From positions 60,920-124,919 of the forward strand of contig JAFYIZ010000012.1 in the NCBI GenBank assembly GCA_017538365.1: a DNA stretch of 64,000 nucleotides, given 5' to 3'. Both the position numbers and the translations under genes were made by a program. The notes under the pieces were generated by a model. The model ran no database searches. It saw only the letters and a list, made by a program, of their open reading frames with translations, and had not been told where the DNA came from. The stretch is from a bacterium (GTDB taxonomy: Bacteria > UBP6 > UBA1177). The number at the start of each line of letters is the position of its first letter. The stretch's first letter is position 1. Of the stretch, positions 14,180 to 40,063 are shown in pieces.

Positions 14180-17100
14180 CTAGAGGCTGCTGCAGGTTGC
14201 AAGTTTGCCGTATTCCGCCATGACTTCCTCTGCGGAAAGCGCACTTCCGATGATTCTGACATCATCGACCGAACCGTAGAATTCGCCGTAAGAGCCGCTG
14301 CCGATATTTGTGGGCGAATATACATTTCCATGTGATGCCGCAGAACCCGTTGTGACAAGAACTCCGTCAAGATAGATGGAAGGAGTTTTATTGTTGAAGA
14401 CTACAGCGACATGACGCCAACCGGTACCGATGTCTCCGCTGTAAACAGCAAGACCAGGCATGTAGCCGTCACCGTGTGCTGTTGCAAGAATTCCGTTTGT
14501 TCCAACTGAGAGTCCTGCTCCGGCATTGCCGCCTTCATGGTTAGCACCGAATAGATAATGCTGACCGCTTGTTCCTGCATACTGACCAGTATCCAGAGTG
14601 ATCGTGTAGCCGCTGGTTACCTTTACCCAAGCCATCATCGTGAAACTGTTTGTATATTTGGAAATACCGGTGGAGACGGTGGTGCTTCCGGTGAAATTGT
14701 ATGCCTTACTACGCTTTCCAGAAGAATCCCAAGAACCACCGCTTATCGAATACGATCCGCCCGCTGTTCCACTGTTTGCAGTCGTAGAACCGGAACCTTC
14801 GTTCAGTTTGAGATAAAGAGGAGCACTCTTTAAAGAATCGCTGCAAGAAACATAATCCAAAGTCAAGTTGTCAATGCAGTAACGGTCGGCACTTGTACTT
14901 ACCGATCCATCCTTACGATACTTGAACAGTATTCTGTGTTTTCCCGGTGCGAGGTTTGAAATTGAAACGGGATTCCACGTTAAGTGATCAGAACCGTATG
15001 TGCAAACTATCTGCGTCGCAGAATTACTGCAGGAATTGCTGTTATAGTCTATATCGCTCTGCGTGGGATCGAGATATACATGAAAAACGTCCCAGTTTTT
15101 CTCGGAAGTTCCGGTATAACTGAAACTCAAGGTTCCTTTTTCATACTCACTGGGGATAGTAACTTCCACAATAAGGTTAGCTACAGTGCCATGATAATCT
15201 CCAGTGTTTGTGGAACACATTGCGTAACTTCCCTCTTTCGGTCCTGGCAATGAAGCGGAGTTTAAACCATTACCGAGACCGTAAGAACCCGATGAAGTCC
15301 TACCCCAGTACGTATTACTTACCTGACTTATCCAATCTCCCGGAAGGTTAGATTCAAAACCCCAGCTGTAATGAGTTTTGATGCACTTGTTGTTTTTCCA
15401 ATCATAACCGCTGTTGCACTTGTATTTGCATGTAGATGCGCTTGAAGAAGTGCCATAGCTTGCCGAGCTGTCAGCCGGCGCAAATGTCGAACCGTTCCAA
15501 GTCTGCGTATAAGTCTGAGTGTCGGAATTAGTGTAGGTCCAAACACTGTTTGCAGGTTTTCCTGAGCATGTAAAGGTCTTAGTTTCGGCCTTGCATGTTG
15601 AACTCGAGCTGTCCCAAGGATAGTGAGTCTTGCACTTGAACCTGCAAGATGTCGTGCTTGCAGTATCGTTATGGGTCAGAGTGGAATCAGCCGGATTCCA
15701 AGCCGAACCTGTCCAATTCTGCTGGTATGAACTTACAGAGTTCCATTCAGCATTTGCAGGCAAAGTACCGCAGTTCTGTGTTTTCGTGTTGGAGACACAC
15801 GATACACCGCTGTTTTCGGTATGGAAAGAGTTGATGCACTTGTATCTGCACTCGGTCGAACTTGCAGTCGTGTTGTAAACACTTGTCGCAGAAGGCTGCC
15901 AGCTGGAGCCGTTCCAAGTTTGTGTTATGCTCGAAACTGTGTTCCAATCAGTATTTGCAGGTTTAGCAGAGCAGTCTGCAGAATGAGAGTCGGCTTTGCA
16001 ATATGAATTGTCTGTCCAAGTGTAGTTCGTGTTGCACTTGTAACGGCACTCTGTCGTGCTTCCTGTCGTATTGTACTGCCATGTAGCAGCCGGCTGCCAT
16101 CCGCCTGACGGAGTCCAATTCTGCGTGATACTTGAAACTGTATTTGGAACTGCACCTGACGGAATTGTGCCACAACTTACTGTTTTCTTGTTGATGCAGA
16201 GTCCGCCTTCATAAGTATAACCAGATTTGCATTTGAAGCGGCACTGGTTGGCGTCAGGAGTTGTATTGTAGCTTCCTGTATTTGACGGTGTCCAACCTGA
16301 ACCGTTCCAAGTCTGCTTGATAGTCTGACTGTTGGAGTTGTTGTAAGTCCATTCAGAATTTGTAGGCTTTGTTGTGCACTCAACATACTTTTCATTAATA
16401 CACTGCGAATCTTCATAGGTATAGCCGCTTGCACATTTAAAGTAGCAGGCATCTGCATAAGTGCTTGTGTTGTAACTTCCTGCGTTGTCAGGTGACCAGG
16501 AACCACTGCTGAAACTCTGCGTGATGGTTTTGGATGTTGAATTGTTAGAACTCCATACAGCATTTACTGGCAGACCTGTGCAGGCTATTTTCTTGTTATT
16601 GGGTGCTATAAAATTGGATGTGTTTGTTTCAAACTGACACGAATCGGTGCACGGTGCGTATTTTTCCAATGTTATTGTTACACTTCCGCTACCATCGTTG
16701 GTTGATGTAGTATAACTCCCGCTTACAAAGTAATAATCACTTCCTGAAGTCGTTGGATAATAGTAACTGTAGGAAGAATCGGAATATCTTCCGCCGTTAC
16801 CGCCGTTACCGCCGTCAGCACCATAAGAACCGGCTCCAGAACCGCCTGAGCCTCCGCTAGATCCTGAAGCACCGTCACCGGCGGATGCATCAGAGTACCA
16901 CCAGTATCCGCCTTTTCCGCCGCCGCCGCCGCCGCCGCCGTAGGCTTCGATCAAAGTCTGAGTACCGATTTTAACACATGATGAACCGCCGCCTGCGCCG
17001 CCTGCACCAGATCTATAGCTGCTACTATGCCCTTCTTTGCCGCCGCTGCTGTCTTTTCCTTTGTGGCAACCCGATCCACCAGTTTGAGCATCATATCCTC

Positions 17101-20100
17101 TTGTTCCTACAGAAGCCGCACCGTTTCCTACTCCTCCAAAAATGTAGGAAAGAGTTTGACCTGCTTTTATAAAGTATTTAGCCGTTATTACCAGTCCTGG
17201 AGCTCTGGAACCGCCATCTCCGTCAGCACCATCACCACCGTTTCCCTGAGTGTGATAACCGTGACCGCCTCTTGCACCTTTAACCGTGATTGTATAAATA
17301 CCGGTTACAGGAGTTTTGTAGGTGTAAGTTGTTCCGGCAGTTCCGCTGGAAGTAATAGTTTCGCTTTTGCAATCGAATACTTCATCGCTCTCGAAAACAA
17401 TACCTTCAGTTGTGGCTTCGCAGGCCTCTTTGCCACTGGTAACAACTCCGTCACCGCAGAAACCGCAGGTGTTGTGGCTGACATCTTTAAGTTTGCAAGC
17501 TGTAGTGCAGCCTGGTGACGTAGTCGTTTCATAATACGAACTGCTCGTAGGCTTGTTGTTCATCGTCAGCCAGCGGTCGCAGAGATTCTTTCTGGAATCG
17601 GCTCCGTCACACTGTTCCGATTCAGAGAAGTTGCTGACATCTGCTTTAGGATAGTTTTCTGTCGTTACCATGTTGCAGTTTACGCCGAAACAGGTTTCGC
17701 TGCTCTTATACTGAACGACTCCGTCACCGCAGCTATACTTACCAGCACCGATTCTGCCGTATTGGCCGGCAGCACACGCCGTCTTATAATCCGACGGGTG
17801 GTTTTCGACACAATCAAGGAATGCCTCTTCATCAGAAACACCGCAGTCAGATTTACAGTAGGATGTAGAGCCACTCGTTTTGTATTTTCCGTTGTTATCT
17901 TTGTCTTCACAAAGTTCATGTGCATCCGGAGTGAACCGGCAGCCTCTGCCGCCAGCCATGCCGGTACCGGTAATAAGGTCGCAGTGTTCGCTGTGGATGA
18001 CAGTATTTCCACCGCACTGAGCACCTTCAGTAGCAACAGCAGATACACACGCCGTACCATCATCATTCATTTTATAACCGGATTTACATGTGTAGAAACA
18101 ACGTTTAAGGGTAGAATCAGGATCATCCTCGTTATATACGCCAAGAATATTCAGTTGTTTAATAATACCCTTTTCGCCATCGTTGACCTCTATCGGATCC
18201 AGATCAGGTGTTTCAGACGGTTCATAATAACACTCAACTCCTTCATTTCCGCAACCGCTATTCAAAGTTCTCTGGATCTTAAGAACGGCACCTTCTCCGC
18301 TTTCAGGAAGAGGTTCCATTTTGACATGACCGTTCTCATCCTTCCAGACTTTAACCCATACTCTGTTATCAGTAAATGTATTTGCGTTGGCCGGTGTTTT
18401 GCAGGTATGAAGGATTCCGCCGATATGACATACTTTGTCCGAACCGTAAACAGAATTTGTCGGGCATGTATAGATGCAGTTTTTACCGTTAGCAACACTT
18501 CCGTATTCCGCAACCGGTCCGCTTCCGGAATAATATTCTTTGGTATTTCCGTTTTTGTGGAATGCTTTGATATTACCGTTTCCGTCAATTTCGGTGTAGT
18601 AATCTATCTGCGGATTGGTGGTTCCGCCATAACATTGATCGCTTGAAGGTGAGCCCGCGGTACTTCCGGCCCAAACACCATTGACAGTATCCGGACACGC
18701 AGTAGTTCCACAATCATGAGTCAGTTTTCCGTGACCGTTTTCACCGTCTCTGCCGACACATTTCGTACCGTCCCAAATCAAATCGTCAACACATTCGAAT
18801 GCACAGGTAGCCGCAGCACCTGTGAGAGAGGAACTGTAGTGCTGAACTTTGGTCTCAGCAGTAGGCCAATATCCTGTTTCAAAATCACCGCTCCAAGTTC
18901 TTGTATATTTCGGGACATTATTACCGCTGGCATTTACGTACTTGATATAAGTTGAAGCTTCTTTTTTGTACAATTTGCCGTCACCGAAATTATTGACATA
19001 CATCTCGGCAGTTGAAAGTGCCGGACAGTCGCTCTGAACCTTGCAGACATTATTTACATTCCACTTGCATTTTTCCGCGACACAGTTAGTCTCATTGGAT
19101 TGCAAGTCATTATTGATACCGTCAGCAGGCTTTTTGTTTTTAAACACTGTATCGCAGCCTTCCGTAACAGAGCCCTCACATTCCTCAGGATCCTTCGGTT
19201 TCGCCCTATTGGCCGCCGGTCTGAATTCATATCCGGAGAAATAACTTGTTCCTGCTTTTGACTGAACGTTGCTGTCGCCGCACTTTGTCCACTGACAGTC
19301 ACTGCCGCAGTCGTATTCCGATCCGTTATAGTTTGTACCGTTGTCGCACTTCTCGGATTTGCATGCTTTACCGTTTTCCAAACCGTAACCGGAACACGGT
19401 CTATCATAGAGGTCACTGTCGACACAAACCTTATTGTCTTCCCACGATATGTCTTTATAAGTCGGAGTACCGTCATCATTCGTAGCTTTAATTCTGACTG
19501 TAATGTCGGAACACTTCGAAGTAAATCTGTCGCCGCATGACATAGACATAACAAATGAAGCCTCTCCGAGGAAGACCATTTTGGTAACATCTGTGGCTGT
19601 ATCGCCTCCGGTTTTCTCACCGGAATCAAGCGACCTTGCATAAGCCCTTACAGTATATGGTCCATTTATAAATGTAACACCGGTAGCCTTTGAAGGATTG
19701 AAGAACCAGCCGTGCTTGCTTCCGCCGCCGCATGCTTTGACCGTGAAATTCTGGTCAATTGCGTAGCCGTTGATATCGGTTGCCCCTTTCAGATCCTCGT
19801 CATTTTCACCGAAATTCCAATCTGTTTTAAGAGTAACCGGAGAACCTTCCAGTTCCGTTCCATCTTTGTCAACGAATTTCAGAATTACGAAATTATCCTT
19901 ATGAGTCATCGGATGGTCGGGGTCACATGCCCAGCCGTAAACTCCGAAACTTACAGCCTGAATAAGTCCGCCGATAGCATCGGATTTGCAGCCCGAATAA
20001 CATTTGGTACCCAACGATTTCTCAGTGCAAAGTCCGAAATCCTGATAAGTGCCGTTAGAACTTACTTTGATTGCATCCGAGCACTCAATAGCTCCGTCAT

Positions 20101-23100: not shown

Positions 23101-26100
23101 ATTCAACACTATAAGCCTTATCCAGCGGCTTGTTTCCTTCCATACCGTCACCGCGATCGCACTCTTCGAATTTGCCGGGGTAAATTTCGTTGATTTTCGG
23201 AATTTCTCCGCCGCACTTAGCAATATCCTTACAGCCTTCACAGTGACCGTATGTTCCGTTGTAGCCACCTTCGTCGCAGGTTTCCCAACCGCCGCTGACA
23301 TAAATGACATATCCTTCGGATGCGCTCCAGCTTCCGATGCTCGGACAGTAGTTGTCAACTGTCAGTCCTGTGCAAGATTCTTCTCCTTTTTCAATATACT
23401 CGTTGTTGCACTCATATCTTTCTTTGCAGTCAAGACGGCAGCTGCCGTAAGCCTTGCCGTTGTAGTTTGCAGTTCCTGCAGCAATCGTGTACTTGCCGTT
23501 TTTGTATTCGACATTCGGAAGTCCGTTGTCGCAGTTTTCTCCGGTTGCAAGATCGCCCGGGTTGCTCTCACCTACAGGAATATCACCGCAGTAAGGCGCT
23601 TTAGCAGTTTTGCAGTCGGCAGAACAGCCTGGATTGTCATTAACGAACTGTTTGTATTTGTAGACACATTCCGCAAATTTCTCATGAATTGCGTTAACCG
23701 GGAATTTTACTCCGTTGATTTCCTCATAGCAGTCAGCTCCAGCCGAAGTATTGATGAATTCTTCGAATGTTATCGGTCTGCCGTTCAAGACAGTAACATT
23801 ACCTTCGTCATCTTCAACGACACCGAGGTCGCAGACTTCCTGCGCAGGATTATCACCGCCGAGTTTAGCCTGGCAGTCAGCAACACTCTCGAAACCGTTC
23901 TGTTCAAAGAAATCATCCCGACTTGAATAACCGTTTGCAGCAAGCGTCGATGCATTAGCCGTACAAAGTGTTATATTCTGGATTTTTCCGTCGCCGCAGC
24001 GCGGTCCGAGAGCATCAGTACCGCCAATACCGCAGGTTACACTTGCGCAGCCCGGACACTTTACTTCGTCCGACTGGCAGTGGGTTTCATAGTGGCCGTT
24101 TTTATCTTTGCTGTCGCACTTTTCATCCAGTGCTGACTGAATAAAACCGTCACCGCAGTAAGCACTCGTGCAGTCTTTCTTGCAGGAACCGGTATCGACA
24201 TTGGCTGCTCCGCCATCGTCGCACTCTTCGTTCGCACCGGGGACTTCTTCGCAGTTAGGATCGCCTGTGCAGTCAGAACGCTGAATTTTACCGTCGCCGC
24301 AGTAACCCTTTTCTGTCCTCGTTTTCTGGCAGCCTACACAAATGTAGCAGAAATCGTCTTCGATTGTCGGTTTCCCGAACTCTCTGCTCGAATTGTATTC
24401 AGGGCAGACGCTTCTTTCGAGTTTATGGCTGCAGTTAACACTTACAGAATCATCGTAATAGTAGAAACCTACACCGCAGTCGCACTGTTCCGACAGAGAC
24501 AAAATATTGTTCGTAGAGAAACTGTATTTTTCGCAGGCAAGACCGGCACCTTCATGGCCCTCGGTTACAACGCCGTTTTCGCAGTATTCGCTCTGGATTT
24601 TACTGTCGCCGCATTTCGGCGGATCAGCAGGATATTTCTGGCAGGGCTCGTAGAGCTGTCCGTTCTTCGTGATCTCTTCTCTTGCACAGAGTTCGCAGCT
24701 GGAGTTGTTGTAACCGCATACTCTGTTGAACCAGTCGTTTTCACAGTTTTCCCTAAAATCGCCGTCAAACGTCTGATAACCGTCGCCGCATATATTCGTG
24801 ATGACAAAAGGTCTCTCGGTCGGAGCGATCGCAATTGCCGTAGCAGTTGTCGAAGCCTCGTTTACACCGTAAGCCGTTACGAAATAAGGCGGAAGCGCAC
24901 AATCCGATATATCCGGGAATGTATTCAAGCCCGAATTTACAGCGTTATAGTAAGCCGTAATCTTTTCATCGCTGCACTGAACATTCTCAATGCTCATAAT
25001 AAGAGCGGCAAGATCTTCCTTGCCTGCAGTAACATCACCGTTCCACTTGATTTCAAAAGCGTGCGGAGCCGGATCACTCTTGAAGTTACAGTTGTTGTAG
25101 ATTTCATTTGCCTTGCTTCCGCTTGTCGGCTTGATATCAGTTTGGCCGTACTTTATACCTTTGCTACCGCCGAGTCCCGGAATATTCATAATATAATCTG
25201 AAGCCGGCAGCATCGCGGCAACATTTTTCTTGCTGCCGCTGTTGTCGGTGATTTCGAAGTAGATTGCAAGAGACTGCTCATCGTCATCCTTGTCGCAAGC
25301 CCAGCCTGAGAAAGTCTGTTCAAGCGTTGGAGCATCATTATCGAAAATTCCGGAAAGCGTCGAACCTTTGACACAGATGACACGGTGTCTTCTTGCCGTG
25401 GTGTCGACAGTTTCTGCGCATGCTTCACCGACGCAGCCTTTCAAAGCGCGGTACGAACGACCGTCTTCCATATTGACAGCCCATGTAAACTTAGCACTGT
25501 CCTCTTTTTCGCTTACGACAGTGTTGTATGACCAGAACCAGTTGTTTCTGACGCACTTATTGTCAATACAGAGGAAACTTCCGTCAGCTTTGCACTTCAA
25601 ATCACCGAAAGGATCTATTGAAACACATCTGCCGCCGATACAATCCATATAATCATCATGGCACGGATCGCTGTCTTCCGGATTGCATGTAGCATAAGTA
25701 CTTTCGGTCTTCGAACAGGTCTCGCTGTTCGGCACACCTCTGCTGTATTCAAGATCAGGATATGCCGTTGCAGGATCGTAAAGGTCGAAATCGACAATCG
25801 AATAAAGCTGGTTGATGTTCGGAAGCGTCCAGCCGCCCATCGCCTCGCCGCAAGTCTGACCTTCACTATTGGTAAACGAACAGATTCCGGCGACTTCAAC
25901 GGTTTCACCGTCCAAAATCGTAGTTTTCGGTATTGTGGTGATAGTATAAGTTTTGTTGCAGTATTTCGGGCGATATGGTGTTCCGCCGCAGACAACCCTT
26001 TCGGTATATGTGGTCGGGCAGATTTTCGCATCAGCCAGAGTTATTGAGGAATCTTCGCAGCGGTTGTAGGAACAGTCGCAGTCGTATGAGTTCGGGTTTG

Positions 26101-29100
26101 AAGTGTCGCAGTGTTTACCGTAACCTTCGTCTTTCAAATTACCGTTTACACAGTCGACATTGACAGGACTGCCGCCCGACAACTGAATTTTTCTGCATTT
26201 GTCCGGGTTGTTCGGGTCCTGAATCCAGCCCTCAGCCGTACACTTGTTGACCTTGTCGGCAAAATTCGTGTAGCACTTGAGCGTGGAACCTTCCGTAATC
26301 AGGTAACCTTCAGACGGACATTCCCTTTTGCAGTAATATTCCGGATCAGTTCCGCCTTCTCCGCCTGTGTGACCGAGGGTGTATCCGGTATTACACGTCT
26401 GGCACTTGCCGTTAAAGTATTCTCCGGAAGAGCAACTGTAGCAGTGATATTCCCCGTCATACCAGACAAGGGAACCGTTCTTGCACTTGTAGCATTTTCC
26501 GTCTGATCCTACATAATTGTAACCGTCCGGGCAGATTTTCTCCGGATCTTTCCACTGTGCCGCACTCGCAACCGATCCGTCCGGATTGGTTGCTGTCGCA
26601 TAGTAAAAATTCGAATCAGGTATCGCCCCGATCCATTCGATGAGGTTACCTTCATCATCGAAGACATATTTGTTTACCGTTGCACAGCATGTACCCTCTT
26701 GCGCGTTTTTATTCTTTTGCATACGGCACAGCGGATATTTTGTTGTTCCGGTAGTTCTGACTCTTTTATCAACCCAATAAGTGCCCCATTGCTGAATATC
26801 ACCTTCATAAATATATTTGTAGCAGTTTGAATATTCACACCTTCCGTCATCTTCTTCCAATGTTCTCAACGGCGAAGTCGGGCATCTCTTGTCTGCACTG
26901 TAATAATTGTTTGAAGTCGGATTCTTCTCAACGACATCGTCATAAACATTGTATCCGACTTCGTCGTTGCTCAGGCATCTTCCGTCAGACTGCTCGGTGT
27001 AGCCGGCAGGACATCCCGGTGAAACGATGCCTTCGTTGCAGCCGACTTCCCTGCCGACACATTTCTGTTCATCAGCAGGTTTACATTCCGTGGAAGTGCT
27101 ATACTTGTAACACTTGTTGTCTGCTTCCAGCACGTAACCAGACTTACATGTACAGCAGTATTTAAATGTAAAATTTGCACTACTCAGTTCATTTTTGTAT
27201 GTCCACACATAACCGTCTGGACAATAATACCTATATTTGAGAAGATGACCTTCATAGTAGGATTCGGATACAGCTTTTCTGCATTGCTGATCAGGAGTAT
27301 TGGGACCGTCTGCAATCCCTGTAGTAATCGTGAGGGTATCGTCGCATACACTGCCGTTGTAATAGCATTTTCCCCAGTAATCGGATTCATCCTGATTCAG
27401 AACCGTTCCAGTTGAAGAAACTTTTTTCTGGAGCTCAGAATAATTCGTGCTGCAAACCGGTGGCTGACACTGTATCGCCGCACCTTTGAATCTGCAGAAA
27501 TCACCTCCGGCAATATCGTCGTAGTTGCTTTGCGGAGAAGGACAGATACGTTCAGGACATTTAAGAACGTTGCCTTCACTGCCGCCGACAGAGTATTCAC
27601 GGCACTTGTTGATAGCTTTCTGCCAGCTGTCAACCCACTCGCCCGTATCGGCGAACTGCAGCTGCGTCGCATTATCGGTAACAACTTCATCGCCGCCGAA
27701 CTTGGTTATCTTGAACCTCGTTTTGACGTCTCCGCTCTCTGTGTAATAAGAATAAGTGAGGGTATGACCGTCCGGATTGCAGTCTGAATCAGAAATATAG
27801 ACGCTTATCAAATCCGGTCCGAAAGTACCTTCATCATCGTCGTAATCGTCGGAATTGGCGAAATATGCGAGCTGACCGGTTCCCTGAGCAAGAGTTTTGC
27901 CGCCGCAGCCGTTGCCCTGCCTAATCGTGATGATTGAAGTTGAACTGTTTGACTTGAAAAGGTATTTAGAGCCTCTTTTCAAAGAAAAAGAAGCATATTT
28001 TTTCGAATCAAGATCGATGTGACCACCATCTCCAAAATTATCAGAGCTTTCGTCATCGGAATCGACGATTTCCGCACCGGACTGCATTCCTTCGCAACCC
28101 TGACAGTCATAGCGCTGCCAGTGAAGAGGATATGTGTAAATATAGGACGCAACAACACACGGTGAATCGGCCTGTGCCGGGTTACATGAAGACGATGCAA
28201 CAACCGGGAAACCGTCATCATCAGTAACGACCGTTTTGGAGCCGTCGCCGTTTACTGTCGCCTGATATGTTCCGACAGTCGTGTCGAAACAGCTGAGCCA
28301 GTTGTTGTCACCGGTAACGGGGTTTTTCTGCGGAGCACACTGATAGCAGTTGTACTCGCTGAAAAGAAGCGTTACTTTGCCGTTAAAGTTTGACTGCCAC
28401 TCAAGAACGGTCTGTTTTGTTCCGACAGGGCAGTAAGTATTACCGTTTTCGATGTATGAAACTTCGGAATCATCGCCGTAAGCAAGGAAATCGCCGCATG
28501 CGTCTTCTTCGCCGGCGTTGTTGACTGTGCCTTTGAAAAGAGTGAGCTGAGTATCGTGAATCGCAGATTTGCATGTCGACCATCTGTAAATCTGGTTTTC
28601 CTTGACCTCGAAAGTGATATAGCTTCCGGGTTTGATCCAGCTGTCGAGATCGGCATCAGTGTAATTGGCAGCACCGAACTCCTGAATTGCGGTCCATGAA
28701 GGAGCCGTGGCAACATTGTCTGCCTTCGCCGCATTGCCGCCGGAGAGTTTGAAATCACTGGAAGCACCGCAGACATCGCAGTGTTCCGATGAAGTCCTGC
28801 GCCATTTTACGGTCGTGGTCTGGTTGCCTGTTGTTTTCTGGCACTCCTTGAATTCACCGGTATATGCACCACCGGCTGTTTTCTGAGCTTCGTAGTTCGT
28901 GACAAGAAGAACTACGCTTCCCGTGAAAGTCGCCTTCCATTCAAGCTGCGACTGGTTTCTGTAACCGTCGGAATTGCTGTATGCCAGGAAATTAGCGGTA
29001 GTCGAGCATGCATTACCATCAATAAGAGTAAGCTCTGTATCGAAAGGAAGCAGACAGTAGCCGTCAACACAGCGGAGACCTGTGTCGGATGACAACTCGT

Positions 29101-29446
29101 AACTTACAGCACATTCGTTATCGGAATCACACGGTTTTGCATAGTCACCGGTGAAAGCATCTTCCTTGCCTTCGGTTGACCACTGGTAGATTTCACCTTC
29201 TACAACCGAAAAACGGAGATAATCGCCGCCGTGAACACGTACCGTCGTCGTGACCTCAGTCCATGAAGGAGAGTAAGTCGGATCGTTGAAGGGTGCAACG
29301 TTGTAGCTGTCGCCCGTGCTGCATCCGTTCATTTTGTGACAACCGTCATTCGATGCAGTGGCCGCAAGAAGCTGCGCACTGAAGAGGAAAAACGCACATA
29401 AAGCAAAAATTATCGTTTTTGCCGCGAAATTCTTTGTATTTTTCAT
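14180..29446 (-). CDS. Giant secreted multidomain protein (about 5089 aa): Myxococcus-type cysteine-rich repeats (CGDG…CDDGN), glycine-rich domain, eight tandem W/C repeats, C-terminal LamG/concanavalin-like lectin domain
   Basis: Signal peptide MKNTKNFAAKTIIFALCAFFLFSAQLLA. GGAGGG RBS before the ATG at 29446. Repeats such as RCGDGVLDKDANEECDDGNDNDHDSC. Gly-rich TYTYKTPVTGIYTITVKGARGGHG…GGGGGGGGKGG. Last gene of the minus-strand pilus string. Confidence 0.8.
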   Translation of the reverse strand: MKNTKNFAAKTIIFALCAFFLFSAQLLAATASNDGCHKMNGCSTGDSYNVAPFNDPTYSPSWTEVTTTVRVHGGDYLRFSVVEGEIYQWSTEGKEDAFTGDYAKPCDSDNECAVSYELSSDTGLRCVDGYCLLPFDTELTLIDGNACSTTANFLAYSNSDGYRNQSQLEWKATFTGSVVLLVTNYEAQKTAGGAYTGEFKECQKTTGNQTTTVKWRRTSSEHCDVCGASSDFKLSGGNAAKADNVATAPSWTAIQEFGAANYTDADLDSWIKPGSYITFEVKENQIYRWSTCKSAIHDTQLTLFKGTVNNAGEEDACGDFLAYGDDSEVSYIENGNTYCPVGTKQTVLEWQSNFNGKVTLLFSEYNCYQCAPQKNPVTGDNNWLSCFDTTVGTYQATVNGDGSKTVVTDDDGFPVVASSSCNPAQADSPCVVASYIYTYPLHWQRYDCQGCEGMQSGAEIVDSDDESSDNFGDGGHIDLDSKKYASFSLKRGSKYLFKSNSSTSIITIRQGNGCGGKTLAQGTGQLAYFANSDDYDDDEGTFGPDLISVYISDSDCNPDGHTLTYSYYTESGDVKTRFKITKFGGDEVVTDNATQLQFADTGEWVDSWQKAINKCREYSVGGSEGNVLKCPERICPSPQSNYDDIAGGDFCRFKGAAIQCQPPVCSTNYSELQKKVSSTGTVLNQDESDYWGKCYYNGSVCDDTLTITTGIADGPNTPDQQCRKAVSESYYEGHLLKYRYYCPDGYVWTYKNELSSANFTFKYCCTCKSGYVLEADNKCYKYSTSTECKPADEQKCVGREVGCNEGIVSPGCPAGYTEQSDGRCLSNDEVGYNVYDDVVEKNPTSNNYYSADKRCPTSPLRTLEEDDGRCEYSNCYKYIYEGDIQQWGTYWVDKRVRTTGTTKYPLCRMQKNKNAQEGTCCATVNKYVFDDEGNLIEWIGAIPDSNFYYATATNPDGSVASAAQWKDPEKICPDGYNYVGSDGKCYKCKNGSLVWYDGEYHCYSCSSGEYFNGKCQTCNTGYTLGHTGGEGGTDPEYYCKRECPSEGYLITEGSTLKCYTNFADKVNKCTAEGWIQDPNNPDKCRKIQLSGGSPVNVDCVNGNLKDEGYGKHCDTSNPNSYDCDCSYNRCEDSSITLADAKICPTTYTERVVCGGTPYRPKYCNKTYTITTIPKTTILDGETVEVAGICSFTNSEGQTCGEAMGGWTLPNINQLYSIVDFDLYDPATAYPDLEYSRGVPNSETCSKTESTYATCNPEDSDPCHDDYMDCIGGRCVSIDPFGDLKCKADGSFLCIDNKCVRNNWFWSYNTVVSEKEDSAKFTWAVNMEDGRSYRALKGCVGEACAETVDTTARRHRVICVKGSTLSGIFDNDAPTLEQTFSGWACDKDDDEQSLAIYFEITDNSGSKKNVAAMLPASDYIMNIPGLGGSKGIKYGQTDIKPTSGSKANEIYNNCNFKSDPAPHAFEIKWNGDVTAGKEDLAALIMSIENVQCSDEKITAYYNAVNSGLNTFPDISDCALPPYFVTAYGVNEASTTATAIAIAPTERPFVITNICGDGYQTFDGDFRENCENDWFNRVCGYNNSSCELCAREEITKNGQLYEPCQKYPADPPKCGDSKIQSEYCENGVVTEGHEGAGLACEKYSFSTNNILSLSEQCDCGVGFYYYDDSVSVNCSHKLERSVCPEYNSSREFGKPTIEDDFCYICVGCQKTRTEKGYCGDGKIQRSDCTGDPNCEEVPGANEECDDGGAANVDTGSCKKDCTSAYCGDGFIQSALDEKCDSKDKNGHYETHCQSDEVKCPGCASVTCGIGGTDALGPRCGDGKIQNITLCTANASTLAANGYSSRDDFFEQNGFESVADCQAKLGGDNPAQEVCDLGVVEDDEGNVTVLNGRPITFEEFINTSAGADCYEEINGVKFPVNAIHEKFAECVYKYKQFVNDNPGCSADCKTAKAPYCGDIPVGESNPGDLATGENCDNGLPNVEYKNGKYTIAAGTANYNGKAYGSCRLDCKERYECNNEYIEKGEESCTGLTVDNYCPSIGSWSASEGYVIYVSGGWETCDEGGYNGTYGHCEGCKDIAKCGGEIPKINEIYPGKFEECDRGDGMEGNKPLDKAYSVEYGQSCVAEEGCDGEYTTWGDKRCCVFGRYCGDGTVDNGLNKQFENWVGKTVTTGGGSIITTYNPAAKWDLSGVTVEYDIHNYALLFTLTEDTTSENPATATFKESFDIDPSVRYLMELDLMLIPVADEEVAFDAGMREYNESGSELTEASSNPSPFYFVDINNPSGTYISGKWYHGRNSSPIKGLGTTSRNWAPETKTGKVILRMEGAEGTRFRVRAFSFYDIEHLSYKNANDTSEEMCDPGYDENGNSLFKDSSSSYMTDCQAGCKWINYCGDGVVQRMSGCENGKYNGYDCVNGIGGAEEICDKGSSNDISNNKANVYNGCEPGCVELGPRCGDGILDTTSCAEGSTNCNVPNSFDGADPELCDNGDDNNNTPRTGKLLDITSSNYGTCRTNCKPSRCGDGIWDKDAFTIDKVPLTDDDGNIIYETNPETGEFIYVNGNKVPKTKDVERYLEGCDCGAPGSYDMAVTGTYQTTLKDGTLFDICKDDSGNPVYNTNSEKRKAVCRPNCTVSRCGDGVLDKDANEECDDGNDNDHDSCKNDCTFNRCNDGVFAFTRSYLCEELVGMTTTQLQDMAKKGIVDCDGSHTYSCSALKDLLTTNAAVADKFDDGVLHCCYDTKLREGGEGDQNCKYPYADRLSMTTRYLSPKELAVQLCKDNAAASDVSDTWCSSAEQIERCEYCKDADCGCAEQYPNRATTERAAYEACLETNKYCIFDASSQKRCWNVFGSCGDGKIDTIAGEQCDNYVKGDSGTYFDLDGEERDGGSDGIGTYCTGLCSSGTCSNSSPRCTEEGQLNCWLSGCARKQHRNNNDITPGTSRCGDGLIDSYAIHEDSITHEITQLEECDDGADAHSDNSSEAYCSTTCKKNTIADGTYARCGDTVIQTSIEKCDDGNTEDGDYCTSDCKTSYGKCGDGEIHGEGFKLYDSLNPLESPNELSGPEYCDLKEEGGVLKGDARSLSLAKAGLTNFCNDCGVDLVPFTCGDKKRNQRFEGCDFGTGNNDGAIECSDAIKVSSNGTYQDFGLCTEKSLGTKCYSGCKSDAIGGLIQAVSFGVYGWACDPDHPMTHKDNFVILKFVDKDGTELEGSPVTLKTDWNFGENDEDLKGATDINGYAIDQNFTVKACGGGSKHGWFFNPSKATGVTFINGPYTVRAYARSLDSGEKTGGDTATDVTKMVFLGEASFVMSMSCGDRFTSKCSDITVRIKATNDDGTPTYKDISWEDNKVCVDSDLYDRPCSGYGLENGKACKSEKCDNGTNYNGSEYDCGSDCQWTKCGDSNVQSKAGTSYFSGYEFRPAANRAKPKDPEECEGSVTEGCDTVFKNKKPADGINNDLQSNETNCVAEKCKWNVNNVCKVQSDCPALSTAEMYVNNFGDGKLYKKEASTYIKYVNASGNNVPKYTRTWSGDFETGYWPTAETKVQHYSSSLTGAAATCAFECVDDLIWDGTKCVGRDGENGHGKLTHDCGTTACPDTVNGVWAGSTAGSPSSDQCYGGTTNPQIDYYTEIDGNGNIKAFHKNGNTKEYYSGSGPVAEYGSVANGKNCIYTCPTNSVYGSDKVCHIGGILHTCKTPANANTFTDNRVWVKVWKDENGHVKMEPLPESGEGAVLKIQRTLNSGCGNEGVECYYEPSETPDLDPIEVNDGEKGIIKQLNILGVYNEDDPDSTLKRCFYTCKSGYKMNDDGTACVSAVATEGAQCGGNTVIHSEHCDLITGTGMAGGRGCRFTPDAHELCEDKDNNGKYKTSGSTSYCKSDCGVSDEEAFLDCVENHPSDYKTACAAGQYGRIGAGKYSCGDGVVQYKSSETCFGVNCNMVTTENYPKADVSNFSESEQCDGADSRKNLCDRWLTMNNKPTSSSYYETTTSPGCTTACKLKDVSHNTCGFCGDGVVTSGKEACEATTEGIVFESDEVFDCKSETITSSGTAGTTYTYKTPVTGIYTITVKGARGGHGYHTQGNGGDGADGDGGSRAPGLVITAKYFIKAGQTLSYIFGGVGNGAASVGTRGYDAQTGGSGCHKGKDSSGGKEGHSSSYRSGAGGAGGGSSCVKIGTQTLIEAYGGGGGGGGKGGYWWYSDASAGDGASGSSGGSGGSGAGSYGADGGNGGNGGRYSDSSYSYYYPTTSGSDYYFVSGSYTTSTNDGSGSVTITLEKYAPCTDSCQFETNTSNFIAPNNKKIACTGLPVNAVWSSNNSTSKTITQSFSSGSWSPDNAGSYNTSTYADACYFKCASGYTYEDSQCINEKYVECTTKPTNSEWTYNNSNSQTIKQTWNGSGWTPSNTGSYNTTPDANQCRFKCKSGYTYEGGLCINKKTVSCGTIPSGAVPNTVSSITQNWTPSGGWQPAATWQYNTTGSTTECRYKCNTNYTWTDNSYCKADSHSADCSAKPANTDWNTVSSITQTWNGSSWQPSATSVYNTTASSTECRYKCINSFHTENSGVSCVSNTKTQNCGTLPANAEWNSVSSYQQNWTGSAWNPADSTLTHNDTASTTSCRFKCKTHYPWDSSSSTCKAETKTFTCSGKPANSVWTYTNSDTQTYTQTWNGSTFAPADSSASYGTSSSASTCKYKCNSGYDWKNNKCIKTHYSWGFESNLPGDWISQVSNTYWGRTSSGSYGLGNGLNSASLPGPKEGSYAMCSTNTGDYHGTVANLIVEVTIPSEYEKGTLSFSYTGTSEKNWDVFHVYLDPTQSDIDYNSNSCSNSATQIVCTYGSDHLTWNPVSISNLAPGKHRILFKYRKDGSVSTSADRYCIDNLTLDYVSCSDSLKSAPLYLKLNEGSGSTTANSGTAGGSYSISGGSWDSSGKRSKAYNFTGSTTVSTGISKYTNSFTMMAWVKVTSGYTITLDTGQYAGTSGQHYLFGANHEGGNAGAGLSVGTNGILATAHGDGYMPGLAVYSGDIGTGWRHVAVVFNNKTPSIYLDGVLVTTGSAASHGNVYSPTNIGSGSYGEFYGSVDDVRIIGSALSAEEVMAEYGKLATCSSL
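15380..16900 (-). repeat. Eight tandem ~62-aa intragenic repeats (C-x-LPANAxW…QxWxGSxWxP…YNT…C-x-FKC-x-GY) within the giant gene
   Basis: Seen in the translated protein just upstream of the LamG domain. Coordinates are approximate. Confidence 0.6.
16916..16941. repeat. In-frame (CCG)n trinucleotide tract (about 8 units) encoding poly-Gly in the giant protein
   Basis: ccgccgccgccgccgccgccgccg on the + strand = GGC codons on the coding strand. Confidence 0.6.
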
Positions 29447-29460
29447 TTTTCCCTCCACCG

Positions 29461-30219
29461 TTAGTTAGCCGAAACGCAGCGCACGCTGTATCTGTTGTAG
29501 CGCGAAGTATATTCAATAAAACCGTCGTAAAAATTGATTATCCATGAAGAAGCAAGCTTCGTGTTGTCTTCGTTTTCAGAATCGAAATGAACGTGTCTGG
29601 TAGCCCAGAACCAGGTAAGAAGCTGTTCTTTGAGCTCGAGTGCCGCATCCGACTCGGTCGCACCGTTTGCATCTTCATAAAAAACAGCGTCAAGCGCCGG
29701 AGCGACTTTTCCGTAGTTTACGATCGAACGGAGCTCGGCAGTCGTAGGAAGACGCCATTTTTTGTTGTTGAGCTTCAGACTTTCGCAGTAAGACTTCGCC
29801 TCATACCAGTTGAGGTCTGAGCTTACCCTTTTCGTCCAGCGGAGATTGGTAACGTTGTCATAAACGATTTCGTTATTGTTTTCTTTGACAAGAGAACGTG
29901 TTCCGTAACGTTTCTGGCCGTCCTGACCTTCATACTCAGCAGGAACCTCGGAACAATCGATCTCTTTCTCGCTGTCGAAACATTTCGTAAGACCGGTCGC
30001 AACAAGCGGCCATCTCTGGGTATTGACTGGAGGAAGTTCAGTTTTTTTCAGAATCGGCAGTTTGACCGCGCTTTCCGGACGGACAACTACTGTGCGGTTC
30101 AGAACCGTTCCGTTCGGCTGCTTGCCGTACCTGGCAGTACTTTCAGAAGTCTCTTCTCCGCACGAAACGAAACAAAAGGCTGAAAACAAAACCGCAATTA
30201 AAAGGATTGTGTTTTTCAT
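29461..30219 (-). CDS. DUF1566 (Lcl C-terminal domain-like) lipoprotein
   Basis: Lipoprotein signal MKNTILLIAVLFSAFCFVSC. Motif KWRLPTTAELRSIVNYG. C-terminal …YSVRCVS. GGGAGGA RBS. Confidence 0.65.
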   Translation of the reverse strand: MKNTILLIAVLFSAFCFVSCGEETSESTARYGKQPNGTVLNRTVVVRPESAVKLPILKKTELPPVNTQRWPLVATGLTKCFDSEKEIDCSEVPAEYEGQDGQKRYGTRSLVKENNNEIVYDNVTNLRWTKRVSSDLNWYEAKSYCESLKLNNKKWRLPTTAELRSIVNYGKVAPALDAVFYEDANGATESDAALELKEQLLTWFWATRHVHFDSENEDNTKLASSWIINFYDGFIEYTSRYNRYSVRCVSAN

Positions 30220-30234
30220 CTTATCCTCCCTACA

Positions 30235-30651
30235 TCAATTATTTTCACATATTGAAGAATGTTCTGTGTTGGAAACCCTGCATTTGACATTGTACGTGGA
30301 TTCAGTACAGCCTGTTCCCTGATTTGTGAAACAGACATAAGCAAAAGCCTGGTATGTTGCCGCGCCGCCTGAGCCTTCTCCTTCGAATTTTATAAGATAA
30401 TGCTTATTGCCTGCACCGCCGAACTCAACACCGTAATACTTCGTCAAAACCGTCTTATCCTTAGTGTACTGGCGGTATGTGTTGAAATAATCTTCTTCGG
30501 CTGCGGCAAGAGTCATCAGCTGTTCTTCAGCCTCGACTCTCTTTGCGCGGTTTGTGTAACCGTTGTAAAGAGGAATCGCTACAGCAGCCAGAACACCAAT
30601 GATTGCAACAACTATCATAAGCTCAATAAGCGTGAAACCTTTTTTTCTCAT
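30235..30651 (-). CDS. Type IV pilin (major-pilin-like prepilin)
   Basis: MRKKG|[22 protein letters not shown] prepilin leader with Glu at +5. C-terminal Cys pairs. Start taken at the internal ATG with an RBS. Confidence 0.75.
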
Positions 30652-30742
30652 TTGAATCTCCAACAAAACAACCTTTCTATTATAATGTTTTCTCCATAAA
30701 ATCAAACATTTTTTTACCTCCGGATTGACCGGACACCGTCAT

Positions 30743-31204
30743 CTACCATGAGCAGCTCACTCCGTTGTACAGATTGGATTCTCCGCTCTTAAACTCCTTA
30801 AAATTCGTAGTTTCTGTGGTATCCATAAAAGACGAGGTATAAAGCCAGCAGTGCAGATCGCTGCGGATTTTGCGCACACCGCTTACCCAGTAACCCATTC
30901 CTACGCCGTCTTTTATAATAATTCCCGTTTTCAGCTTCATCTGCTCGGTGTCTCTCGGAAAAGCATATTTTGAAACCAGTGCATTTTTATCTGTTCCGGT
31001 ATTTCCGTATCTTCCCTCAGAAAGATAGAACTTTTCCTGAGATGCCGCAGCGACAAGCATCTGCGATTTCAACTCGTCAATTTTGGAATCATCCGAAAAA
31101 GAGTCAAATATCGGGACTGCAAGCGCTGCCAGAATACCGACAATCGCGACTACGATCGCCAGCTCAATCAGCGTAAAGCCTTTTTTGTCCGAAAAAATCA
31201 TCAT
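30743..31204 (-). CDS. Type IV pilin / pseudopilin (prepilin-type N-terminal cleavage/methylation domain)
   Basis: MMIFSDKKG|FTLIELAIVVAIVGILAALAVP. Confidence 0.75.
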   Translation of the reverse strand: MMIFSDKKGFTLIELAIVVAIVGILAALAVPIFDSFSDDSKIDELKSQMLVAAASQEKFYLSEGRYGNTGTDKNALVSKYAFPRDTEQMKLKTGIIIKDGVGMGYWVSGVRKIRSDLHCWLYTSSFMDTTETTNFKEFKSGESNLYNGVSCSW

Positions 31205-38983: not shown

Positions 38984-38989
38984 CTCCAG

Positions 38990-40054: not shown

Positions 40055-40063
40055 GCCAGCCTC

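What the first reader, a model, noticed from the sequence alone, without database searches (positions are those of the whole stretch)
14180..29446. 5089-aa protein with an unusual domain combination: TIGR02232-like Cys repeats, ALK/Gly_rich-type glycine-rich domain, novel W/C tandem repeats and a LamG domain
The CGDG…E.CDDGN repeat is the Myxococcus cysteine-rich repeat. The segment TYTYKTPVTGIYTITVKGARGGHG…GGGGGGGGKGGYWWY looks like the bacterial/protist glycine-rich domain that is homologous to the ALK receptor Gly-rich region. Eight consecutive ~62-aa repeats (LPANAxW…TQxWNGSxWxPA…YNTT…C-x-FKC-x-GY) do not match any repeat family I recognise. The C-terminus is a concanavalin/LamG-type jelly roll (…FTMMAWVKV…SIYLDGVLV…). 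Together this predicts a carbohydrate-binding surface megaprotein. The W/C repeat may be a new fold.
Basis: partly seen in the sequence, partly recalled or inferred. Interest (0 to 1): 0.6.

Follow-up and report, generated by a model that had tools for sequence, protein, structure and literature searches.

The report
Giant pilus-operon adhesin, rumen bacterium
A real 5,088-residue, cysteine-rich secreted protein of an uncultured rumen bacterium is the last gene of a conserved type IV pilus tip operon; it carries a bacterial version of the human ALK receptor's glycine-rich domain and an uncharacterised repeat, so it is most likely a pilus-linked adhesin.

Summary
The ORF is real: ATG 29446 to stop 14180, minus strand, 5,088 aa, about 546 kDa. 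Four independent metagenome assemblies reproduce its 3' 3.8-9.8 kb at 99.97-99.99% identity, and the sister protein P0209 shares its architecture.

Confirmed claims:
- Cys-rich CGDG repeats (14 observed, 0.26 expected).
- A C-terminal LamG domain.
- An ALK/LTK-type glycine-rich domain. A family profile hits ALK/LTK chains at E 2e-8, and Foldseek's top 21 PDB hits are ALK/LTK. The window copy itself misses the Pfam model.

Corrected claim:
- There are six W/C repeats of 67-68 aa, not eight of about 62.
- The repeat is widespread (937 units in 120 homologs, usually with DUF1566).
- Pfam DUF5874 partly catches homolog copies but not the window's copies.
- A pLDDT-94 model has no Foldseek match in PDB or BFVD.

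New findings:
- The organism is a UBP6/UBA1177-like rumen bacterium.
- The gene starts 14 nt after a DUF1566 lipoprotein gene, at the end of a minor-pilin/PilY1 operon.
- This gene order is kept in four related loci, down to 35% identity.
- Only the N-terminal ~600 aa is conserved; homolog lengths run from 881 to 5,173 aa.

Best reading: a pilus-linked modular adhesin with an N-terminal docking module, a Cys-rich stalk and a variable binding head. The ligand is unknown.

The parts
14180..29446 (-). Megaprotein gene, ATG to stop: 5,088 aa, about 546 kDa mature, pI 4.6, 289 Cys in the mature chain. Residue numbers in this report count from the upstream GTG at 29458; subtract 4 to count from the ATG.
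   Evidence: The 3' 3.8-9.8 kb is identical at 99.97-99.99% in L001-L004.
29452..29456 (-). GGAGG Shine-Dalgarno, 5 nt before the ATG. Only 14 nt separate the stop of the upstream Lcl_C gene from this ATG.
   Evidence: No promoter- or terminator-like site lies in the junction.
29360..29446 (-). Sec-type signal peptide (MKNTKNFAAK-TIIFALCAFFLFSAQLLA|A). It has no prepilin G/FTLIE motif and no lipobox.
   Evidence: Read from the sequence; inference, as no signal-peptide predictor was available.
27539..29326 (-). Conserved N-terminal core, aa ~45-640, with three similar units. It is the only part shared by all operon-linked homologs and is the proposed docking module.
   Evidence: No Pfam or PDB match.
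25703..25834 (-). Partial Lcl_C/DUF1566 motif (GGWTLPNINQLYSIVD...), aa 1209-1252.
   Evidence: Pfam Lcl_C, 25.7 bits, below the threshold of 34.9.
17369..24790 (-). Cys-rich acidic stalk, aa ~1557-4030, with CGDG...CDDG (TIGR02232/DUF4215-like) repeats and interspersed non-Cys domains.
18755..18925 (-). Degenerate W/C-like unit, aa 3512-3568.
   Evidence: An HMM of the six clean units scores it at iE 1.3e-5.
16649..17341 (-). ALK/LTK-type glycine-rich domain, aa ~4040-4270. The poly-Gly run at window 16941 has 8 Gly here and 9 in sister assemblies.
15365..16582 (-). Six tandem W/C repeats of 67-68 aa, aa 4293-4698. Pattern: C-x2-(L)P-x-NA-x-W ... TQ-x-W-NGS-x-W-x-P ... YN ... C-x-[FY]-x-C-x2-x-Y-x5-7-C.
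14855..15364 (-). MAM-like jelly-roll domain, aa 4699-4868 (tentative).
   Evidence: Pfam MAM 25.0-25.5 bits against a threshold of 26.4; 3 of 9 homolog copies hit MAM; the profile finds no MAM chain in PDB.
14222..14665 (-). LamG / concanavalin-A-like domain (Laminin_G_3), aa 4932-5079.
   Evidence: 54.9 bits against a threshold of 27.6; also present in homologs.
14183..14194 (-). Extreme C-terminal C-S-S-L. The C-S-x-L ending is kept in 5 of 7 complete LamG-ending homologs; its meaning is unknown.
29461..30219 (-). 252-aa Lcl_C/DUF1566 lipoprotein gene immediately upstream (lipobox ...FVSC).
   Evidence: Pfam Lcl_C 75.3 bits; N-terminus read; conserved upstream of every megaprotein homolog examined.
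30235..31204 (-). Two prepilin-type genes: 156 aa (N_methyl + ComP_DUS) and 153 aa (N_methyl).
31206..32006 (-). Conserved 266-aa gene with no family match.
32016..38345 (-). 2,109-aa PilY1-like protein.
   Evidence: Its C-terminal part matches the P. aeruginosa PilY1 C-terminal domain 3hx6 at E 1.4e-9; weak Pfam T4P_PilY1 hit.
38357..41373 (-). Four upstream genes: 208 aa; 354 aa with a prepilin-like N-terminus (KAFTIIELMVS); 178 aa, PilV-like N_methyl; 254 aa, N_methyl. Together they resemble a minor-pilin set.

Best explanation
The gene encodes a genuine, roughly 546-kDa, Sec-exported, disulfide-rich modular protein of an uncultured rumen bacterium of candidate phylum UBP6 (genus UBA1177-like). 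It is the terminal gene of a type IV pilus tip operon (minor pilins, PilY1-like protein, 266-aa protein, two pilins, DUF1566 lipoprotein, then the megaprotein).

Proposed mechanism:
1. The protein crosses the inner membrane by Sec. This is inferred from the signal peptide.
2. Its conserved N-terminal ~600 residues dock it to a product of the same operon: the minor-pilin/PilY1 tip complex, the pilus export machinery, or the DUF1566 lipoprotein. This is inferred from conserved gene order and from this being the only conserved part of the protein.
3. A ~3,400-residue Cys-rich acidic stalk projects a variable C-terminal head. In this strain the head is an ALK-type glycine-rich domain, six W/C repeats, a MAM-like domain and a LamG domain. 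The head binds a ligand on particles or other cells. The domain identities are shown; binding and the ligand are inferred.

It therefore works like a pilus-associated adhesin or cargo protein, not like a pilin.
For: Real gene:
- Four assemblies from different samples match the window at 99.97-99.99%.
- Internal repeats are at most 75% identical at the DNA level.
- The 5,173-aa sister protein P0209 is collinear over aa 36-4116 at 39% identity.

Operon membership:
- A 14-nt gap with GGAGG follows the Lcl_C gene stop, with no promoter or terminator between.
- Four upstream genes carry N_methyl/TIGR02532 above threshold.
- The 2,109-aa neighbour matches PilY1 structure 3hx6 at E 1.4e-9.

Conserved synteny:
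- The order PilY1-like, ~260 aa, pilin, pilin, Lcl_C, megaprotein homolog is kept in L009-L011 (~88% nt) and in L093, L094 and L095 (megaprotein N-terminus 35-45% aa).

Modular, fast-evolving payload:
- Operon-linked homologs are 881, 892, 2,227, 4,227 and 5,088 aa and share only aa ~45-640.
- In L094 the megaprotein N-terminus is the most diverged gene of the operon: 45%, against 50-74% for the others.
- The C-terminal head also occurs as a separate 989-aa ORF.

Binding-type modules:
- LamG.
- GRD with ALK/LTK profile and fold matches. Foldseek also finds a cyanophage fiber and a mycobacteriophage tail-tip protein.
- W/C repeats elsewhere are combined with DUF1566, EGF, C-type lectin and Sushi domains.

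Precedents:
- PilY1 and the minor pilins form the pilus tip and priming complex (PMC7541494).
- Non-pilin cargo encoded in pilus operons docks on tip minor pilins through its N-terminus: CofJ (PMC6048534) and TcpF (PMC9565799, PMC10120004).
- Routes of pilus-tip functionalisation are reviewed in bioRxiv 10.64898/2026.09.18.752573.
Against: - No physical or expression evidence exists; gene order is the only link to the pilus.
- The operon already encodes a PilY1-like tip adhesin, so a second tip protein is not required.
- The megaprotein has no prepilin signal and no PilY1 propeller.
- A 546-kDa folded protein is far larger than any known pilus cargo, and may be too large for a secretin channel.
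- 289 cysteines imply about 144 disulfides in a strongly reducing habitat. This is unexplained.
- The N-terminal core has no detectable relative of known function.
- No pilus motor or secretin genes lie in the window.
- In most UBA1177-like reference genomes the gene is absent from the methylmalonyl-CoA mutase locus that flanks it here. Its genomic position therefore varies between strains.
Confidence: 0.5

Rival explanations
1. It is an autonomous cell-surface or secreted fibre-binding protein: a carbohydrate-binding megaprotein that sticks cells to plant particles. It is exported and anchored independently of pili, perhaps held by the DUF1566 lipoprotein, and is merely co-regulated with the pilus genes.
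For: LamG, MAM-like and DUF1566 modules are typical of glycan-binding proteins. The Lcl C-terminal (DUF1566) domain binds sulphated glycosaminoglycans and forms trimers (PMC11162425). The habitat is the rumen. The adjacent lipoprotein is conserved with the megaprotein.
Against: It does not explain why the gene stays at the end of the minor-pilin/PilY1 operon down to 35% identity. No CBM, cohesin/dockerin, T9SS, LPXTG or other anchoring domain was detected. No glycan specificity was tested.
Confidence: 0.3
2. It is an adhesin aimed at eukaryotic or other microbial cells (rumen protozoa, fungi, host epithelium or prey bacteria). It would use animal-like modules (ALK-type GRD, MAM-like, LamG, EGF-like ends of the W/C repeats) to bind protein or proteoglycan ligands.
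For: GRD and MAM-like domains co-occur here, as GRD and MAM domains do in ALK (the ALK architecture is from general knowledge). The GRD fold also appears in phage receptor-binding fibres. W/C arrays are abundant in Gracilibacteria and Absconditabacteria MAG proteins; that these are episymbionts is general knowledge. The C-terminal head varies between strains.
Against: This rests purely on domain resemblance. The GRD family is tiny, with 8 clusters in 1.84 billion representatives, and there is no ALKAL-like ligand or target information. This reading overlaps with the best explanation, differing only in the ligand.
Confidence: 0.15
3. It is an assembly chimera, a pseudogene fusion, or a polymorphic-toxin-type (Rhs/CDI-like) protein with an exchangeable C-terminal effector.
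For: The C-terminal ~1,000 aa exists as a stand-alone ORF 4 kb downstream of a 4,079-aa paralogue in L008. Gene length varies between strains.
Against: Four independent assemblies give the same sequence from within the stalk (aa ~1819) through the GRD/W/C/MAM/LamG head to the stop codon, and P0209 has the same N-terminus-to-GRD-to-W/C layout. The 15.3-kb reading frame is intact. There are no Rhs/YD repeats, toxin domains or immunity-like small ORFs downstream; the next gene is methylmalonyl-CoA mutase.
Confidence: 0.03

Closest known systems
PilC/PilY1 type IVa pilus tip adhesins with the minor-pilin priming complex (PMC7541494; bioRxiv 10.64898/2026.09.18.752573)
   Same: A large non-pilin, Sec-exported protein encoded inside a minor-pilin operon, with variable ligand-binding modules and a faster-evolving exposed part.
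   Different: The megaprotein has no PilY1 beta-propeller, and a separate 2,109-aa PilY1 homolog sits in the same operon. Its conserved part is N-terminal, whereas PilC/PilY1 dock through a C-terminal plug. It is 2.4-fold larger than that neighbour.
Type IVb pilus cargo proteins CofJ and TcpF (PMC6048534, PMC9565799, PMC10120004)
   Same: A non-pilin protein with an ordinary signal peptide, encoded in the pilus operon. The interaction determinant is at the N-terminus, and the protein is exported or displayed through the pilus tip minor pilin.
   Different: CofJ and TcpF are far smaller single proteins (general knowledge) of type IVb systems that lack PilY1. This protein is 546 kDa, and the operon looks like type IVa. 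No interaction has been shown.
ALK/LTK glycine-rich (TNF-like + Gly-rich) domain, Pfam PF12810 (PDB 7nwz, 7lrz, 7nx0, 7n00)
   Same: Profile-level sequence match over ~180 positions, including the strand motifs YtvPisGiYeItvkGAkGGkGg and GGGGGGGG-x-V...AyGGGGG. The top 21 Foldseek hits are ALK/LTK.
   Different: The window copy misses the Pfam model. The model is only moderately confident (pLDDT 69, TM ~0.4), so polyglycine-II packing is not verified. There is no kinase and no known ALKAL-type ligand. It belongs to a tiny bacterial subfamily of 8 clusters.
W/C-repeat proteins annotated 'DUF1566 domain-containing protein [bacterium]' and Pfam DUF5874
   Same: The same 65-68-aa four-Cys repeat: 937 units in 120 homologs. 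DUF5874 matches the C-terminal two-thirds of consensus-like units above threshold.
   Different: In those proteins the array usually ends in Lcl_C, EGF or C-type lectin domains; here it sits between a GRD and MAM-like/LamG domains. The window's units are below the DUF5874 threshold.
Giant bacterial adhesins with a stalk and a ligand-binding head (RTX/Bap-type such as LapA, SiiE, MpIBP; from general knowledge)
   Same: Half-megadalton size, an acidic repetitive stalk, a C-terminal cluster of binding domains and variable length between strains.
   Different: No RTX nonapeptides, no type I secretion signal or genes, and no Ig-like repeats. The stalk is Cys-rich, the signal peptide is N-terminal, and the linkage is to a pilus operon.
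Myxococcus cysteine-rich acidic repeat proteins (TIGR02232 / DUF4215)
   Same: The CGDG...E-x-CDDGN repeat.
   Different: Only a few of the ~14-20 copies reach model thresholds, and the repeats are interspersed with other modules.

Membership tests
ALK/LTK glycine-rich domain (Pfam PF12810 ALK_LTK_GRD) | Match to the curated Pfam model | tested here: not met
   No hit on the window copy at E<=5 to 10. One of 10 family members hits at 6.5e-6.
ALK/LTK glycine-rich domain (Pfam PF12810 ALK_LTK_GRD) | Sequence homology to experimentally defined ALK/LTK GRDs | tested here: met
   The profile of alignment A1 hits 8 distinct ALK/LTK chain sequences at E 2.4e-8 to 1.5e-6 over profile positions 13-195.
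ALK/LTK glycine-rich domain (Pfam PF12810 ALK_LTK_GRD) | Fold: TNF-like beta-sandwich interwoven with glycine-rich stretches | tested here: met
   The AF2 model (pLDDT 68.9, pTM 0.73) has an 8-strand sandwich. The Foldseek PDB top 21 are all ALK/LTK, with probability 1.0 and E from 1e-5 to 8e-4.
ALK/LTK glycine-rich domain (Pfam PF12810 ALK_LTK_GRD) | Hexagonally packed polyglycine-II helices | tested here: inconclusive
   The Gly-rich loops have pLDDT below 50 in the model, and TM is only ~0.4.
Cys-rich acidic repeat (TIGR02232 / Pfam DUF4215) | Match to the curated model, with repeated CGDG...CDDG motifs | tested here: met
   TIGR02232 scores 23.7 bits against a cutoff of 20.8, with 2 stretches. 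DUF4215 scores 24.3, below 27. CGDG occurs 14 times against 0.26 expected.
LamG / concanavalin-A-like (Pfam PF13385 Laminin_G_3) | Match above the gathering score over the full profile | tested here: met
   54.9 bits against 27.6, profile positions 12-150 of 151.
MAM domain (Pfam PF00629) | Match above the gathering score | tested here: not met
   25.0-25.5 bits against 26.4, although nearly the full profile is covered. Three of 9 homolog copies hit, best at 2e-6. The profile finds no MAM chain in PDB.
Established small repeat families for the W/C unit (Sushi/CCP, EGF, FN3, PKD) | Model match or fold match | tested here: not met
   Best Sushi score is 16.4 bits against 20.7. There is no FN3 or PKD hit. 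Foldseek PDB best E is 3.7, and BFVD best E is 1.1. The repeat profile gives no PDB sequence hit.
Pfam DUF5874 (PF19202, unknown function) | Match above the gathering score | tested here: not met
   The best window unit scores 14.3 bits against 27.1. Homologs do pass: P0012 scores 40.9 bits, and 32 of 45 repeat pairs hit.
Type IV pilus minor-pilin/PilY1 operon component | Encoded within, and co-oriented with, prepilin-type genes and a PilY1 homolog, with conserved synteny | tested here: met
Type IV pilus minor-pilin/PilY1 operon component | Prepilin (class III) signal peptide or PilY1 C-terminal propeller on the protein itself | tested here: not met
   The signal peptide is Sec-type. There is no N_methyl or T4P_PilY1 hit on the megaprotein.
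Type IV pilus minor-pilin/PilY1 operon component | Physical association with, or export by, the pilus | not testable with these tools
   This needs complex modelling, proteomics or genetics.
RTX/Bap-type giant adhesins (type I secretion) | RTX nonapeptide repeats, a C-terminal secretion signal and adjacent ABC/MFP/TolC genes | tested here: not met
   There are no such Pfam or NCBIfam hits on the protein or on the neighbours scanned.
Polymorphic toxins (Rhs/CDI) | Rhs/YD or filamentous-haemagglutinin repeats, a C-terminal toxin and a downstream immunity gene | tested here: not met
   No such domains were found. The C-terminus is LamG, and the next gene is methylmalonyl-CoA mutase.

The most novel reading that the evidence does not exclude
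A third way of arming a type IVa pilus. A half-megadalton protein that is neither a pilin nor a PilY1 homolog would be recruited to the pilus, or exported by it, through a conserved ~600-residue N-terminal module of unknown fold. It would carry exchangeable heads built from an ALK-type glycine-rich domain and from a widespread four-cysteine W/C repeat, and that repeat would prove to be a new fold. This would occur in a candidate phylum with no cultured member.
Probability: 0.22. Interest if true: 0.8.

Novelty: new variant of a known kind. Interest (0 to 1): 0.55.

Why it matters
If the pilus link is functional, it extends the known ways of functionalising type IV pilus tips (PilY1 plug, modular pilins, type IVb cargo) to a giant modular cargo or adhesin.

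It also gives a first handle on how uncultured UBP6 rumen bacteria attach to particles or cells.

Independently, it places the rare ALK/LTK glycine-rich fold in a bacterial surface protein, next to a MAM-like domain. ALK also combines MAM and GRD domains, so this bears on where that animal receptor module came from.

Finally, the W/C repeat is abundant in uncultured bacteria: 937 units in the 120 best of 298 homologs. It has no structure or function assigned, and a confident model is now available for it.

Tried and rejected
Searches that found nothing:
- Single-sequence searches of the GRD and W/C segments, the N-terminal 600 aa, aa 1200-1560 and the MAM/LamG tail against PDB sequences.
- A word-indexed homolog search with the GRD alone, probably because glycine words saturated the candidate list.
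- The exhaustive HMMER search did work, and gave only 8 clusters.
- A scan of the GTDB species-representative genomes with aa 3100-5092 found no close relative.
- A profile of the MAM-like domain against PDB found only chance-level hits.
- A profile of the N-terminal core against PDB found nothing.
- tblastn for an orphan C-terminal cassette elsewhere in the window found only DUF4215 repeats of the 1,726-aa neighbour.
- Literature searches for bacterial ALK-type GRDs and for DUF1566-pilus links found nothing specific.

Libraries that were unavailable:

Ideas rejected:
- My initial guess that the organism is Fibrobacter. Methylmalonyl-CoA mutase identity points to UBP6/UBA1177 MAGs (PMC7820578).
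- Mis-assembly.
- RTX/type I, T9SS, LPXTG, Rhs or toxin readings, because no supporting domains were found.
- The C-terminal C-S-x-L as a CaaX prenylation box. The middle residues are not aliphatic and the protein is exported, so the motif remains unexplained.
Full report

A single ORF spans 14180..29458 on the minus strand, 5,092 codons from a GTG. The junction sequence reads TAA-CGGTGGAGGGAAAA-ATG. It is the likely start. The product is 5,088 aa, with a mature mass of about 546 kDa, pI 4.6 and 289 Cys.

An exact-protein look-up with the neighbouring methylmalonyl-CoA mutase returned contigs from four different samples (ERZ28653752, ERZ27256923, ERZ28653899, SRR12529211). They are 99.97-99.99% identical to the window and include between 3.8 and 9.8 kb of the 3' part of the gene. 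The only difference inside the gene is one extra GGC codon in a poly-Gly run at window 16941.

Internal repeats are at most 75% identical at the DNA level. Assembly collapse or chimerism is therefore very unlikely.

The window corresponds to a GenBank MAG labelled only 'bacterium' (locus tags IKS86_, proteins MBR64214xx). There the gene's neighbours are annotated but unstudied.

**2. Which organism?**

The mutase is 99-100% identical to those of rumen MAGs, including 'bacterium UBP6_UBA1177' and yak, reindeer and red-deer MAGs. The study that produced the deer MAGs reports three UBP6 MAGs, all of genus UBA1177 (PMC7820578). A review lists UBP6 as 'Candidatus Asafiota' (PMC11382960). My first guess of Fibrobacter was wrong.

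**3. Domain claims**

*Cys-rich repeat.* CGDG occurs 14 times against 0.26 expected. TIGR02232 passes its cutoff. DUF4215 is just below its cutoff. This claim is confirmed.

*LamG.* Laminin_G_3 scores 54.9 bits against a cutoff of 27.6. This claim is confirmed.

*Glycine-rich domain.*
- The window copy has no Pfam ALK_LTK_GRD hit and no single-sequence PDB hit.
- An exhaustive HMMER search of 1.84 billion representatives found only 8 related clusters.
- A profile of 10 such domains (A1) hits human ALK and LTK ectodomain chains at E 2.4e-8 to 1.5e-6. The strand motifs are aligned, not only the glycines.
- An AF2 model (pLDDT 69) retrieves ALK/LTK GRD structures as the top 21 Foldseek hits in PDB. 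A cyanophage fiber and a mycobacteriophage tail-tip protein follow.
Formal Pfam membership is not met, and polyglycine-II packing could not be verified.

*W/C repeats.*
- There are six clean tandem units of 67-68 aa (aa 4293-4698), not eight of ~62. Only degenerate fragments lie upstream.
- The repeat is not peculiar to this protein. A search with the C-terminal 823 aa gave 298 hits, and the repeat HMM finds 937 units in the best 120.
- Those proteins are mostly annotated 'DUF1566 domain-containing protein' or carry EGF, C-type lectin or Sushi domains.
- Pfam DUF5874 matches the C-terminal two-thirds of consensus-like units above threshold in homologs, in 32 of 45 repeat pairs. The best window unit scores 14.3 bits against 27.1.
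- A two-repeat AF2 model is very confident (pLDDT 94.3).
- Foldseek finds nothing significant in PDB (best E 3.7) or BFVD (best E 1.1). The repeat profile hits no PDB sequence.

*Additional modules.* There is a borderline MAM-like domain at aa 4699-4868. There is also a partial Lcl_C motif at aa 1209-1252.

**4. Context: the key new finding**

The gene starts 14 nt after a 252-aa Lcl_C/DUF1566 lipoprotein gene, with no promoter- or terminator-like site between them.

Upstream, on the same strand and tightly packed, lie these genes:
- Two prepilin-type genes of 156 and 153 aa.
- A 266-aa gene with no family match.
- A 2,109-aa protein whose C-terminal part matches the P. aeruginosa PilY1 C-terminal domain 3hx6 at E 1.4e-9.
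- Four more genes, three of which have prepilin-type N-termini and one of which is PilV-like.

This is the layout of a minor-pilin/PilY1 operon, whose products form the pilus priming and tip complex (PMC7541494).

**5. Is the linkage conserved?**

Sister strains (L009-L011, ~88% nt identity) keep the order. Their giant gene, however, is 4,227 aa long and only 73% identical over aa 1-3344.

A search with the N-terminal 1,556 aa found only four homologs. Three could be placed on contigs (L093, L094, L095). All show the order PilY1-like, ~260 aa, pilin, pilin, Lcl_C, megaprotein homolog.

Reciprocal tblastn confirms orthology of every gene. It also shows a divergence gradient. In L094 the identities are: orf266 74%, pilins 73% and 64%, Lcl_C 57%, PilY1-like 50%, megaprotein N-terminus 45%.

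The homologs are 881, 892 and 2,227 aa long, and they share only aa ~45-640 with the window protein. P0209 (5,173 aa) is collinear to aa 4116 but ends in more W/C repeats and lacks the MAM-like and LamG domains.

In another relative, the GRD, W/C, MAM-like and LamG head is a separate 989-aa ORF. It lies 4 kb downstream of a 4,079-aa paralogue.

The family therefore has a conserved N-terminal module tied to the pilus operon, followed by a plastic stalk and head.

**6. Mechanism**

*Shown:*
- The gene exists.
- The modules listed above are present.
- It belongs to the operon by spacing.
- The gene order is conserved.
- The N-terminus is conserved while the C-terminus varies.

*Inferred:*
- Sec export.
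- Docking of the N-terminal module to an operon product: the tip complex, the export machinery or the lipoprotein.
- Display of a variable binding head.

Precedents exist for non-pilin proteins encoded in pilus operons that use their N-terminus to bind tip minor pilins (CofJ and TcpF: PMC6048534, PMC9565799, PMC10120004). PilC/PilY1 docks by a C-terminal plug (bioRxiv 10.64898/2026.09.18.752573).

The main difficulties are:
- The size of the protein relative to any known pilus cargo.
- The presence of a bona fide PilY1 homolog in the same operon.
- About 144 presumptive disulfides in a reducing habitat.
- The complete lack of experimental data.

The ligand is unknown.

**7. Comparison and novelty**

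It works most like a pilus-associated adhesin or cargo, and like giant stalk-and-head adhesins. It is a member of neither PilY1, the pilins nor the RTX adhesins, because defining features were tested and not met.

The GRD is a divergent bacterial relative of the ALK/LTK domain. The W/C repeat belongs to a large family that is catalogued only in part (DUF5874) and is uncharacterised.

I rate the whole as a new variant of a known kind, of moderate interest. A more novel reading remains open: a new mode of pilus functionalisation plus a new small fold. I put its probability at about 0.2.

Noticed in passing
L096 3001-4686 (GCA_021734475.1, 'Candidatus Gracilibacteria'; protein P0111): This W/C-repeat homolog has 44 in-frame TGA codons (genetic code 25). 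It shows Arg at the repeat's two invariant Trp columns (QTRNGTxRTP against QTWNGSxWxP), and in every matched motif those Arg are CGA codons; CGA makes up 23 of the gene's 30 Arg codons. This fits the CGA/CGG-to-Trp reassignment reported for Absconditabacteria, with CGG reassignment suspected in some Gracilibacteria (PMC8629427). The repeat could serve as an independent marker of that recoding.
   Followed up: partly
window 16941 (aa ~4173, inside the glycine-rich domain): A 3-bp length polymorphism in a poly-Gly run: 8 Gly in the window and 9 Gly in all four sister assemblies (L001-L004).
   Followed up: yes
window 14183-14194; C-termini of P0002, P0003, P0015, P0028: The last four residues are C-S-x-L (CSSL, CSGL, CSSL, CSDL, CSNL) in 5 of 7 complete LamG-ending homologs. 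The meaning is unknown, and the motif is a poor CaaX box.
   Followed up: partly
L008 1-5967 and 10001-12970; also L007: In a relative, the GRD/W/C/MAM-like/LamG head is a stand-alone 989-aa ORF (P0003). It has no signal peptide, and similarity to the megaprotein extends upstream of its start codon. It lies 4 kb downstream of a 4,079-aa paralogue, separated by LGT, an oxidoreductase and a 487-aa gene. It is 55-61% identical to the window's head, while the large paralogue is only 36% identical to the stalk. It may be an orphan or exchangeable cassette. P0211 (297 aa) starts with the same peptide.
   Followed up: partly
window 41574-50906: Next to the operon lies an 864-aa regulator with Reg_prop and AraC HTH domains. 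Divergent from it are a 1,726-aa lipoprotein with DUF4215 repeats and Lcl_C, and an overlapping 440-aa Lcl_C lipoprotein. The region is therefore a cluster of DUF1566 and Cys-repeat surface proteins.
   Followed up: partly
window 7452-11803 against L005: The window carries type I restriction-modification genes (N6_Mtase, Methylase_S, a DUF4357/RAMA protein) and, just upstream at 5397-7237, two further genes (a GMT-wHTH protein and DUF5131). All are absent between the flavodoxin and the aromatic-amino-acid lyase genes in a related strain (L005). In that strain, and in L006, the mutase also has different upstream neighbours: arylsulfotransferases in L005 and Lcl_C proteins in L006. The megagene's position next to the mutase is strain-specific.
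   Followed up: partly
window 51770-56117: A minus-strand run of genes unrelated to the finding: a ParA/MinD-type ATPase fused to an HTH_25 domain (539 aa), an ankyrin-repeat protein (245 aa), a double-FHA protein (295 aa) and a 356-aa protein with no family match.
   Followed up: no
window 31206-32006 and orthologs in L009, L093-L095: The 266-aa protein between the PilY1-like gene and the pilin genes is the best-conserved gene of the operon (60-94% identity). It has no Pfam or NCBIfam match, so it may be an unrecognised pilus-tip component.
   Followed up: partly
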